DNA from: the human T2T-CHM13v2.0 reference genome, Homo sapiens
Length of the DNA: 64,000 nt
Assembly: GCF_009914755.1 (NCBI RefSeq)
Contig: NC_060928.1
Direction: 5' to 3' (one strand)
The notes beneath the pieces were generated by a model. That model did not search any database. It saw only the letters and a list, made by a program, of their open reading frames with translations, and was not told where the DNA came from. Below are positions 49,820 through 54,872 of the stretch, piece by piece. Position 1 is the stretch's first letter. Each line of letters starts with the position of its first letter. Made by a program: the position numbers and the translations under genes.

Positions 49820-50910
49820 GGATTGGATAAAGAAAATGTGGTACCTATACACCATGGAATACTATGCAGCCATAAAAAAGAAATCACATCCTTTACAGCA
49901 ACATGGATGGAACTGGAGGTCATAATCCTAAGTGAATTAACACAAGAATGGAAAATCAAATGTTGCATGTTCTCACTTTCAAGTGGAAGCTAAACATTGA
50001 GCACACATGGACATAAACATGGGAAAAATAGACACTGCAGACGACTAGAGTTGGTGCGGGGAGGACATGGGTTGAAAAAATATTTTTCAAATGTAACTAC
50101 TGTTTGATAAAAAGGAACTATGCTAAATGACCACTTCTCCCAGCTAAAGGCAGACCATCTACATTACATTTTTTTTTTTTTAAGACGGAGTTTCACTCTT
50201 GTTGCCCAGGCTGGAGTGCAATGGCACCATGTCGGCTCACCGCAATCTCTGCCTCCTGGGTTCAAGCGATTCTCCTGCCTCAGCCTCCTGAGTAGCTGAG
50301 ATTACAGGCATGTGCCACCATACCCGGCTAATTTTATAGTAGAGTAGTAGAGACGGGGTTTCTCCATGTTGCTGAGGCTGGTCTCGAACCCCCGACCTCA
50401 GGTGATTCACCCACCTTGGCCTCCCAAAGTGCTGGGATTACAGGTGTAAGCCACTGTGCCCGGGCTACATTACATTTTTACTCAGTTAAGAGCAAACAAT
50501 AATAGGTGAATAGCAGCCTGATTCTGTATGTTAAAAATGATTGGTGATTGAATCTCAAATGTATTAGTCCGTTCTCACACTGCTATAAAGAACTACCTGA
50601 GACTGGGTAATTTATGAAGAAGAGAGGTTTAATTGACTCACAGTTCCACAGGCTGTACAGGAAGCATGGCTGCGTGGCTGGGAGGCCTCGGGAATCATAC
50701 AGTCGTGGTGGAAGTGTGAAGGGGAAGCAAGCACATCTTACCATGGTGGAGTTGGAGAGAGAGAGAGCAAAGGGGGAAGTGCCACACACTCTTAAACAAC
50801 CAGATCTTGTGAGAAGTCACTCACTATCATGAGAACAGCAAGGAGGATACGTACTTGCATATATACTCCCTGAATCTAAAATAAAAGTTGAAAAAAATTT
50901 TAAAAAGAAA
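49820..50910 (+). mobile_element. L1PB/L1MA-like 3' end split by inverted duplication 3 (L1 at 49820-50082 and ~50850-50910)
   Basis: KKEITSFTATWMELEVIILSELTQ ORF2 end; UTR stops at GGGTTGAAAAAATA and resumes at TGCATATATACTCCCTGAATCTAAAATAAAAGTTG plus A-tail. Confidence 0.85.
50088..50843 (-). repeat. Inverted duplication 3, inserted copy of 53483-54255 (unique flank plus partial MST LTR), with a later AluSp-like insertion at 50169-50465
   Basis: Reverse complement match on both sides of the Alu; Alu TSD CTACATTACATTTTT. Confidence 0.95.
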
Positions 50911-50914
50911 ATTG

Positions 50915-51180
50915 TTGGGAGGCTGAGGTGAGAGGATTGCTTGAGCCCAGGAACTCGAGACCAGCCTGGGCAACATAGAAAGACCCTGTCTCTACCAATA
51001 ATCAAAAAAATTAGCTGGGCTTTATGGCGCACGCCTGCAGTCTCAGCTACTTGGGAGGCTGACATGGGAAGATGGACTGAGCCTGGGATTCTGAGGCTGC
51101 AGTGAGCTACGATGGCGTACTGCACTCCAGCCTGGGTGATAGAGTGAGACCCTGTCTCAAAAAAAAAAAAAAAGAAAAAA
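50915..51180 (+). mobile_element. 5'-truncated AluJ
   Basis: Begins TTGGGAGGCTGAGG after the L1 tail. Confidence 0.9.
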
Positions 51181-52353
51181 GGAAAATTGTCCAAGGAATT
51201 TAAAAATTTTCATTTTGGCTCTCTCATGCGCAGTAACCGTGAGGGTTTAAAGGACAGTGCCAGGGCCCCATGTTGTTAGAGAGCACTCTGTTGTCTTTGG
51301 CATGGGAGAGGACTTCAGTGCAAAACGGTGTACGAAGTGTGTTGTCAGCGGAAGCTAATTTACACCCTGTGCTGGACGGAGGGTTGCTTGTTTGGAGTTG
51401 TTTTTCCTGTGGCTAAAGGATTCCTGGGAATGCTGTTCAGGCATGTCTCTGCTGGTGGTATGCTGTCATCCTTTTCTTTTCCATTTACAGTGTAGAGCTG
51501 TTACAGTTGTAAACAGGCCTGGCTTTTTACATTGTTACTCACTGGTGTGGGAACAATGTATGTTAATGACATAAGTACTGCCCTTGAGAGTACTGCCCAA
51601 AACAGCCCCAGGTTGAAAATGTATCCTCACAGATTTAATTTTTCTTATAAAAGAAAGAGGTATGTTCCTTCTGTGTAGAGCGAACTAGAAATATATTAAC
51701 CCTGCAACTAACATGCAGCACTTCACAACTCATTAGTGAGGCCCCTGGGATATGGCTCCATATATTTGCCCACAAGTTGGTATAGGCCAGAAACCAGCTG
51801 CTTTTTCACCTACGTGGTGAGAGCCAGAGGCCAGTCAAGGAACAAGGAACTATAGGAGAGGAACTACAAGGAGAATCTTCAGATTTTCAAGCCTATTATT
51901 GTTCAATACATAGTAGTTTAAAAAACTTTGACAGTTGTACTTAAAGTCCCTTCTCATCCTATGAGTCTCTGCCTCTGCCAGTATGTGATGTTTCTGGCTC
52001 ATGGTGATGACAAATTCGGATGCAAAAGTAAACAAATAGGCCCCCATCAGCCCATCGGGGCAGCAGCCCTAGGCAGTGACAGTTAAACAGTTGCAAAGAC
52101 CTATTTTCAGAGGCATGTACCCACACCTGACCTACTATTAAGTAAGCATGGAAATTAGTATTTCTGTTGGCTTTAATTAAGTAAATATTATAGTTTGATC
52201 CACAACACCAAATCTTTGTCAATGTCCTAAAAGAAATTGTTCTTTTCACCGCAAGAGTTATGTATTCAGAGTAAAAATGGGTAGATGTATATTTTCTCTG
52301 TGAAGGAAAAGAACTGGAAGGTGCTTATTTTATTTCAAGAGTTCCCAAAGCGA

Positions 52354-52642
52354 GGCCGGGTGTGGTGGCTCACACCTGTAATCCCAACAGTTTGGGAGGC
52401 CAAGGCGGGCAGATCACGAGGTCAGGAGTTCAAGACCAGCCTGGCCAACATGGTGAAACCCCATCTCTACTAAAAATACAAAAATTAGCTGGGCTTGGTG
52501 TCAGGTGCCTATAATCCAGCTACTCAGGAGGCCGAGACAGGAGAATCGTTTAAACCCGGGAGACGGAGGTTGCAGTGAGCCGAGATTGCGCCATTACATC
52601 TCAGCCTGGGTGGCAGGGTGAAACTCTAAAGAAAAAAAAAAA
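52354..52642 (+). mobile_element. Alu (AluSg-like)
   Basis: TSD AAGAGTTCCCAAAG(C/T)GAG. Confidence 0.95.
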
Positions 52643-53392
52643 GAGTTCCCAAAGTGAGACCATTACTCAAAAATTTGAGATGGGAGGCTAAATTGCCCCT
52701 GCTGTGTATTTAGAGGGTTAGTATTGAATAGGTCAACAAGCATTTCCTAAGTCTCTAGGCTGAATTTCTAATACGGTTTCTTAGTAACCATTCTCTTAAA
52801 GAATGTGAGATTTGAGGTAAGCTTTGCTTTAAGGGAGGGACAGATGTGAACCCTAATACTGGTTAGAAGGACATAAGAGAAGAGAGAAAGTAAAACTATT
52901 TAAGGAATTTTTTTCTCTCATTTAAGGCCCAAAGCAGCCTTTCCTTTTCTCGGTCCAATCCGATGCTTAAACTTGCCTGAATTTCCTCTGGGGTTAAGTT
53001 CAAACTAATTTTCACTGTTCTAAGCATGCAGGGCTCTTGCACAACTTCATGCCTCTGTGCGTGTGTTTCCACCAGTTGGAATGCCCTTTCTCCCACCCAC
53101 CCCTAAACTCGTACATGCTTATCCTTGCAGAGACCTCCTTTGTAAACCAAGAAGCCCCCGACTCCCCTGTTACAGAGGTAATTGCTTTGGCCTTACCTGT
53201 TTTACCTCCTGGTAAGTTACAGCACTTAGCACCTTGCAATTAGAGGTCATAGATTTCCCTGCTTCTCTAGAATGTGAGATTCTTAAAGGCAGGGATTTTA
53301 TCTCATTTATTAGATTTGTATCCCATGTACCTGACCTAGTATCTAGCACAACTTAGTAGATATCAATTAATGTTCATTGTATAGTCCTTTGA

Positions 53393-54089
53393 TGATGCGG
53401 TTTGGCCCTGTGTCCCTACCCAAATCTCATATCAAATTGTAATCCTGATGGGAGGTAATTGAATCATGGGGGCGGACGTTCCCTTTGCTGTTCTCATGAT
53501 AGTGAGTGAGTTCTCACAAGATCTAGTTGTGTATTTTATTATTTATTTATTTTTTGAGTTGGAGTTTCACTCTGTCACCCAGGCTGGAATGCAATGGTGC
53601 AATCTCAGCTCACTGCAACCTCTGCCTCCTGGTTCAAGTGATTTTCCTGCCTCATCAGCCTCTCAAGTAGCTGGGATTACAGGCATGTGCCACCACGCCC
53701 GGCTAATTTTGTATTTTTAGTAGAGACAGGGTTTCACCACATTGGTCAGGCTGGTCTCAAACTCCTGACTTCAGATGATCTGCCCACCTCCGTCTCCCAA
53801 AGTGCTGGGATTACTGGTGTGAGCCAGTGAGCCCAGCCAAGATCTCGTTGTTTAAAAGTGTGTGGCACTTCCCCCTTTGCTCTCTTTCTCTCTCCAACTC
53901 CACCAAGGTAAGACGTGCTTGCTTCCCCTTCACCCTTCCACCATGACTGTAAGTTTCCCAAGGCCTCCCAGCCATGCAGCCGTGCTTCCTGTACAGCCTG
54001 TGGAACTCTGAGTCAATTAAACCTCTCTTCTTCATACATTACCCAGTCTCAGATAGTTCTTTATAGCAGTGTGAGAACAGACTAATACA
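53393..54089 (+). mobile_element. MST MaLR solo LTR interrupted by an Alu (53534-53838, minus)
   Basis: TGATGCGGTTTGG...ACTAATACA termini; perfect 5-bp TSD TTTGA; Alu TSD AAGATCT(A/C)GTTGT. Confidence 0.93.
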
Positions 54090-54872
54090 TTTGAGATTCA
54101 ATCACCTATCATTTTTAACATACAGAATCAGGCTGCTATTCACTTATTATTGTTTGCTCTTAACTGAGTAAAAATGTAACGTAGATGGTCTGCCTTCAGC
54201 TGGGAGAAGCGGTCGTTTAGCATAGATCCTTTTTATCAAGCAGTAGTTACATTTGCAGAGTACTTTTTAAAAGCAAAATATTTGTTCTTATTTTCCTGGA
54301 GTTTACAACCTATTTGGGCTGACAAGATGTATAGAGATGTGTGTGTATATATATATACACATATATGTGTATAAACATGTATATGCACACACATTTACAC
54401 ACATACATATATGTAGTTTCACTTATTCTTTCAACAAATGCATATGGAGTGCTAAACACGTGCCCAGAGCTGTGCTGGGTGCTGGCACCCGAGATGCGGA
54501 CTCCACGGTGCCTAACCACAACACTTCAATACCCAGGGCGATGAGAGCCAGAAACAAAAGAAGTAAGATAACTTCTTGGTAAGCAGGAGGAAGGGGAAAA
54601 GATTAGAGGAGGGTAAAGAAAGCAACCTAAGTAAAAGTTAGAAGGTACAAATGGGCATGGAATTTGCAGGAGTGGTGAGGAGATTCATGAGACTAAAGGC
54701 TTTAGGGAGAAATTTGGGGGCCAATAAAAAGCTATGAGTACACACACACACGCACACACACACACACACACACACAGTGAATGATACTCAGTTTAACCTA
54801 ATTCAACAAGCACTTCCTGATTCCTGACTGTATAGAAAGTACTGTGCAACATATTGAGACTCATTCAGAGAT

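What the first reader, a model, noticed from the sequence alone, without database searches (positions are those of the whole stretch)
49820..54255. Inverted duplication 3: a self-dating event that overwrote an L1 tail
Seen: about 445 bp (165 bp unique plus ~280 bp of MST LTR) from 53483-54255 lies inverted at 50088-50843, exactly where an L1 3' UTR is broken and missing a segment. The downstream LTR is complete with TSD TTTGA, identifying it as the donor. Each copy later received its own AluS at a different position with its own TSD. Inference: the event post-dates the MST and L1 insertions and pre-dates both Alu insertions. Repeat annotation would show two unrelated MST copies and hide the event.
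Basis: partly seen in the sequence, partly recalled or inferred. Interest (0 to 1): 0.75.

Follow-up and report, generated by a model that had tools for sequence, protein, structure and literature searches.

The report
Inverted repair patch inside PALLD intron
A 448-base stretch of a human PALLD intron sits, flipped, inside a broken old mobile element about 3 kb from its source, likely patched in while a DNA break was repaired some 30-45 million years ago; it is real but an ordinary example of a known kind of local duplication.

Summary
Real and correctly read, but ordinary. 448 aligned bases of 53485-54255 (166 unique, 282 LTR) lie inverted at 50088-50841, with 24 mismatches (5.4%). The unique part matches only these two places in the genome. 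One target-site duplication brackets both L1 pieces, so they are one element; 18 of 19 relatives show 48-83 bases missing at the break. The downstream LTR is whole, so it is the donor. Each copy spans the other's empty Alu site, so both Alus came later. The left junction has a 10-of-12 match between L1 and donor. This is a repair-mediated local duplication as defined by Pace et al. 2009 (PMC2671141; 824 human cases); it is absent from their table, whose filters exclude it. Such pairs are common: 5 in 12 random 10-kb tiles. One loose end: the copies are about half as diverged per branch as the Alus nested in them (1.6% against 3.5%, P=0.08), so the self-dating gives an order but only a loose age, likely 30-45 Myr. 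No function shown. No primate outgroup could be checked.

The parts
49808..49822 (+). left copy of the L1 target-site duplication
   Evidence: right copy at 51183-51197, 14 of 15 alike
49820..50083 (+). 5'-truncated L1, 3' UTR piece before the break
   Evidence: 40 matches listed in the genome, others 81-89%; alignments
50072..50087 (.). left junction: 12 bases where L1 relatives match the donor's flank imperfectly (10 of 12 for the commonest form), then a few bases matching the donor 3 of 5
50088..50559 (-). acceptor: inverted copy of the 166-base unique flank, split by an Alu
50169..50463 (-). AluS-type element inserted in the acceptor, TSD 50159-50173 / 50465-50479
   Evidence: 0 of 5 young-cluster sites; subfamily AluSp recalled
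50560..50841 (-). acceptor: inverted copy of the 3' 282 bases of the LTR, without the donor's Alu
50842..50852 (.). right junction: diverged LTR bases or up to 5 filler bases, no clear microhomology
50853..50906 (+). L1 3' end and A-rich tail after the break
50915..51180 (+). 5'-truncated old (J-like) Alu inside the right L1 TSD, own TSD at 50907 / 51182
   Evidence: 18.7% from the majority at non-CpG sites
51183..51197 (+). right copy of the L1 target-site duplication
53393..54089 (+). donor: whole solo MaLR (MST-type) LTR, TSD TTTGA at 53388 and 54090
53534..53837 (-). AluS-type element inserted in the donor LTR, TSD 53517-53530 / 53838-53851
54090..54255 (+). donor: unique flank that was copied

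Best explanation
A 448-base piece from about 3 kb downstream lies inverted inside an old L1 tail that lacks 48-83 bases, likely copied in during repair of a germ-line DNA break by a template switch, likely 30-45 million years ago. Shown: the copy, its direction, the L1 loss, the order of insertions. Inferred: the L1 broke (or a fork stalled) near 50083; the left 3' end paired imperfectly (about 10 of 12 bases) with the top strand at 54260-54271, copied back through the flank and 282 bases of LTR, let go, and was joined to the L1 tail at 50853 with little or no homology. Two AluS elements then inserted, one in each copy. The product is probably neutral.
For: Single TSD round both L1 pieces, whole LTR with TSD downstream, empty Alu sites. 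Missing L1 length 48-83 bases in 18 of 19 relatives; the 19th carries its own Alu there. Left junction: 16 of 19 relatives could be read, matching the donor at 7-10 of 12; the commonest form (5 of 16) matches 10 of 12, reached by 0.02% of positions within about 5 kb on both strands (window chosen after looking). Donor and acceptor group together in a tree with 13 related LTRs (support 84/83, 4 shared private sites). Size, distance, deletion, microhomology and lack of a TSD match the class in PMC2671141. 5.4% sits best with that paper's human-to-macaque class (mean 5.9%, 79 rows) against 9.4% (all primates, 54 rows) and 3.9% (great apes, 77 rows): relative likelihood 0.59 / 0.11 / 0.30 (210 of about 824 rows read).
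Against: No outgroup empty site seen. The pathway (SDSA, microhomology-primed fork switch, polymerase theta) cannot be told from one old junction. The deletion is larger than the 1-15 bases in the paper's Table 1. A run of 5 T lies at the left junction, the paper's threshold for a poly-A/T tail. Age tension: 14 non-CpG differences in 428 (1.6% per branch) against 12 in 346 (3.5%) for the nested Alus, Fisher P=0.077; P=0.001 if the Alu rate is taken as exact.
Confidence: 0.8

Rival explanations
1. Same event, but older (before the New World monkey split), with the copies later made more alike by gene conversion between the inverted arms.
For: The copies look about half as old per branch as the Alus that post-date them; AluS peaked 35-60 Myr ago (PMC5402677 passages); arms are 3 kb apart.
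Against: Differences are evenly spread (longest identical run 47, simulated median 63). The three blocks separated by Alus are equally diverged at non-CpG sites (3/80, 10/316, 1/32), so three separate tracts would be needed, none removing or copying an Alu. Alu distance from a majority includes source-gene differences and overstates age (inference).
Confidence: 0.07
2. Same break and patch, but the template was the nascent PALLD RNA, reverse-transcribed from the left broken end.
For: The strand that the left end must pair with is the PALLD sense strand; the locus is intronic; 5 T at the left junction would read as a short A tail (sequence).
Against: No AATAAA or ATTAAA in the 55 bases before 54255, no TSD, and 3 of the 5 junction bases match the donor. 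In PMC2671141 Table 2 only 295 of 824 acceptors are intronic, so the class does not need a host transcript. A DNA template fits equally.
Confidence: 0.06
3. A 3.4-kb inversion made by staggered breaks left inverted duplicates, and recombination between them later flipped the middle back.
For: It gives the same two junctions and the same final order (reasoning).
Against: Needs two fixed events; the middle is in the original orientation, as both TSD pairs and the L1 tail show; local duplications without inversion are common.
Confidence: 0.04
4. The copy was made during the L1 insertion itself, by the reverse transcriptase jumping to local DNA and back.
For: The insert lies inside one L1 TSD, about 50 bases from the tail.
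Against: The L1 piece differs from 19 relatives by 14% on average (10-17%) and a J-like Alu sits in its TSD, whereas the copies differ by 5.4%; the donor LTR had already gathered private changes before copying.
Confidence: 0.02
5. Two independent LTR insertions that only look alike.
For: MST-type LTRs are frequent; two more lie in the window (38295-38666, 56049-56406).
Against: Those match at 73-81%; the acceptor carries the donor's TSD and 166 bases of unique flank.
Confidence: 0.005

Closest known systems
Repair-mediated duplications (RDs), Pace, Sen, Batzer and Feschotte 2009, PMC2671141
   Same: Insert inside an interrupted transposon, donor within 5 kb, under 619 bases, deletion plus microhomology, no TSD; inverted cases are described (ACSBG2 exon 7).
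   Different: 448 bases against a mean of 162; deletion 48-83 bases, beyond the pipeline's 30-base filter; the copied DNA includes part of an LTR, a case the authors say their pipeline excluded; both copies later split by Alus. Not in Table S1.
Templated insertions by microhomology-mediated template switching (MMBIR/FoSTeS, polymerase theta end joining); seen only as search listings and abstract starts, mechanism otherwise recalled
   Same: Local inverted template, imperfect microhomology at one junction, loss of bases at the break.
   Different: Those are somatic, de novo or experimental events; this one is old, and longer than typical polymerase theta insertions (recalled).
Transposon-in-transposon dating (TinT; described in PMC10735291 passages)
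   Same: Nested insertions give an order of events without a clock.
   Different: Here the order dates a duplication, using reciprocal empty sites.

Membership tests
Repair-mediated duplication (Pace 2009) | Insert of at least 50 bases splits one transposon copy | tested here: met
   One TSD round both L1 pieces, co-linear with relatives
Repair-mediated duplication (Pace 2009) | One identifiable donor in the genome | tested here: met
   Unique part has only two places; LTR part's best match is the donor, 93% against 87% next
Repair-mediated duplication (Pace 2009) | Donor more than 50 bases and less than 5 kb away | tested here: met
   2.6 kb between nearest ends (50841, 53485)
Repair-mediated duplication (Pace 2009) | Deletion, microhomology or filler at the junctions | tested here: met
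   48-83 bases lost; 10-of-12 imperfect match left; up to 5 unassigned bases right
Repair-mediated duplication (Pace 2009) | No retrotransposition signature (poly-A/T tail with TSD) | tested here: inconclusive
   No TSD and no polyadenylation signal, but 5 T at the left junction equal the paper's threshold
Repair-mediated duplication (Pace 2009) | Empty orthologous site in an outgroup primate | not testable with these tools
   No relatives held for this genome
Pace 2009 catalogue (pipeline filters, not features of the class) | Transposon halves within 30 consensus bases; insert with at most two BLAST hits | tested here: not met
   Filters; deletion 48-83 bases and LTR content fail them, which explains its absence from Table S1
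Segmental duplication | Over 1 kb at over 90% identity | tested here: not met
   448 bases; definition
L1-mediated retrocopy or transduction | Poly-A tail, polyadenylation signal and TSD | tested here: not met
   No TSD, no signal; only 5 T

The most novel reading that the evidence does not exclude
The two arms have stayed in contact since the duplication: gene conversion or repeated flips of the enclosed 2.6 kb (which holds two overlapping annotated enhancers) kept them younger-looking than the Alus inside them, and in PALLD pre-mRNA they form a non-Alu duplex (317 pairs, -1.78 kcal/mol per base, stronger than 5 of 5 neighbouring inverted Alu pairs) that is edited or shapes splicing.
Probability: 0.08. 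Interest if true: 0.5.

Novelty: new member of a known kind. Interest (0 to 1): 0.2.

Why it matters
Little by itself. It is a clean teaching case: five insertions and one duplication can be ordered from TSDs and empty sites alone. It also shows how far the 2009 catalogue undercounts: the same simple screen found 4 local pairs in this 64 kb and 5 in 120 kb of random tiles, tens per Mb if most are real, against 0.62 per Mb of transposon DNA in the paper; the authors themselves call their count a minimum. If the clock mismatch proved to be conversion, short inverted duplications would be unreliable clocks.

Tried and rejected
Hot spot: 4 local pairs in the window against 5 in 12 random 10-kb tiles, P=0.53; inverted only 4 against 1, P=0.09; inverted with gap over 1 kb 3 against 1, P=0.19. 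Not supported, on a small background (12 of 120 planned tiles; the random-tile pairs were not checked one by one, and one of the 5 lies in a dispersed repeat). Exact deletion size: a tree of the L1 piece with 19 relatives did not place it with the short (about 49) or long (about 81) form. Conversion tracts: no clustering of differences. RNA family: no Rfam match at gathering score in 49500-54600. Hidden repeat in the 166-base flank: no third match, and 13 of 13 related LTRs have unrelated flanks. Straight clock: 1.5e-9 per non-CpG site per year would give about 11 Myr for the copies and 23 Myr for the nested Alus; rejected as a date in favour of the empirical classes. Prior description of the locus: none found by PALLD or the number strings 1697-1700 in Table S1 (hg18 position recalled) or in paper searches (listings only).

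Full report
Observation. The inverted copy is there. Aligning unedited blocks, 50088-50841 matches the reverse complement of 53485-54255 over 448 bases outside the Alus, with 24 mismatches and 2 indels; 10 mismatches are at CpG sites. 166 bases are flank and 282 are LTR. A genome search with the flank returned only these two places; with the LTR part the acceptor was the best other match at 93%, the remaining 38 listed at 82-87%.

Anatomy and order. The L1 starts at 49820 and has one 15-base target-site duplication, 49808 and 51183, round both pieces. A J-like Alu (50915-51180, 18.7% from the majority at non-CpG sites) sits in the right copy of that TSD, which also shows the L1 is old. In 19 related L1 copies fetched from the genome (19 of 39 other matches), the stretch between the two pieces measures 48-83 bases in 18, mostly about 49 or about 81; one carries its own Alu (gap plus 8). 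A tree did not choose between the forms. The downstream LTR has both ends, a TTTGA TSD and a normal length (376 against 371-391 in 11 of 13 relatives); the acceptor holds only its 3' part with one TSD copy and the flank, so the downstream copy is the donor. Each nested Alu has its own TSD and the other copy spans the empty site; neither carries the states of the young Alu cluster (0 of 5 each), which fits AluS. Subfamily names (AluSp, AluSq/Sx, AluJ, MSTA, L1PA15-17) are recalled, not from a library.

Junctions. At the left junction, the 12 bases of L1 at the break resemble the 12 donor bases just outside the copied part: 7-10 matches in the 16 of 19 relatives that could be read, 10 for the commonest form, a level reached by 0.02% of positions nearby. 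The window was chosen after looking, so the true odds are perhaps tenfold weaker. At the right junction the LTR likeness fades over 50842-50852 and the L1 resumes at 50853 with no clear shared bases. This fits priming from the left end and a homology-poor closure on the right (inference).

Age. The copies differ far less than the L1 piece from its relatives (mean 14%) or the LTR from its relatives (9-10% at non-CpG sites against 3.5% between the copies over the same columns), so the event is well after both insertions. Against my reading, the nested Alus look older than the event that must precede them: 12 changes in 346 filtered non-CpG sites (3.5%) against 14 in 428 shared by two branches (1.6% each); Fisher P=0.077, or P=0.001 with the Alu rate taken as exact (69 of 81 Alus and 173 of 213 columns kept). 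Conversion is not indicated: differences are evenly spread and all three Alu-separated blocks agree. Using rows of Table S1 of PMC2671141 as an empirical scale (parts 1, 7, 9 of 15; 210 rows), 5.4% is most like the human-to-macaque class (relative likelihood 0.59; great apes 0.30; all primates 0.11). Two later AluS insertions (peak 35-60 Myr) make the great-ape class unlikely and pull the date back, so 30-45 Myr is my estimate, with the marmoset state open. MSTA and MSTB are simian-only, so if the recalled name is right tarsier will lack the LTR altogether.

What is known. Pace et al. 2009 found 824 human duplications of 50-619 bases inserted in transposons within 5 kb of their donor, with deletions, microhomology or filler, and ascribed them to synthesis-dependent strand annealing (I read parts 1-5 of 8 of the text, the methods section on identification, passages, and parts of Table S1). 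This locus has the class features; the tail criterion is borderline (5 T) and the outgroup test could not be run. It is not in Table S1, as expected from the 30-base and single-copy filters, and the authors state that cases including part of a transposon were excluded. PMC5402677 (passages, section 6) and PMC10735291 (passages) were used for ages only. Paper searches on PALLD with inversion or structural-variant terms listed nothing on this locus (listings only; supplements of those papers not seen).

How unusual. The window holds three more inverted local pairs, two confirmed as two-copy in the genome. Twelve random 10-kb tiles held five local pairs, one inverted; neither total density (P=0.53) nor inverted share (P=0.09) stands out. 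The background is small, so a mild excess of inverted pairs is not excluded.

Function. None shown. No Rfam match. The arms are predicted to pair in PALLD pre-mRNA more strongly per base than five neighbouring inverted Alu pairs, across a 3-kb loop that holds two overlapping annotated enhancers; this is a computation, not evidence of editing or inversion. Verdict: real, first reading supported, new member of a known kind, interest 0.2.

Noticed in passing
window 6596-6893 and 8673-8968: Inverted pair, 176 unique bases at 95%, two copies in the genome; likeness runs on through the left arm of two facing Alus and drops in the right arms, as if copying began or ended in Alu homology.
   Followed up: partly
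window 31070-31171 and 34677-34778: 102-base inverted copy at 91% inserted between the halves of an old Alu (30925-31062, 31172-31300); two copies in the genome. A textbook repair duplication, also not found under PALLD in the 2009 table.
   Followed up: partly
window 10892-11004 and 11159-11267: Older inverted pair, 82% over 113 bases, 155 bases apart; fold-back duplication or a decayed element.
   Followed up: no
window 40049-40890: Tandem array with a unit of about 24 bases that also matches its own reverse complement at 70-76%.
   Followed up: no
window 50907-51197: An Alu inserted into the L1's own target-site duplication, so the same 9 bases occur three times (49807, 50907, 51182).
   Followed up: yes
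L044 1311-1486 / 3206-3381; L039 851-911 / 1869-1930; L046 6671-6821 / 8016-8161; L044 6096-6160 / 7349-7413; L050 7244-7358 / 9652-9766: Local duplication candidates in random tiles, one inverted and four direct.
   Followed up: no
L004, L006, L007 (contig C10): Three near-identical L1 copies, probably one segmental duplication; they count as one independent relative.
   Followed up: no
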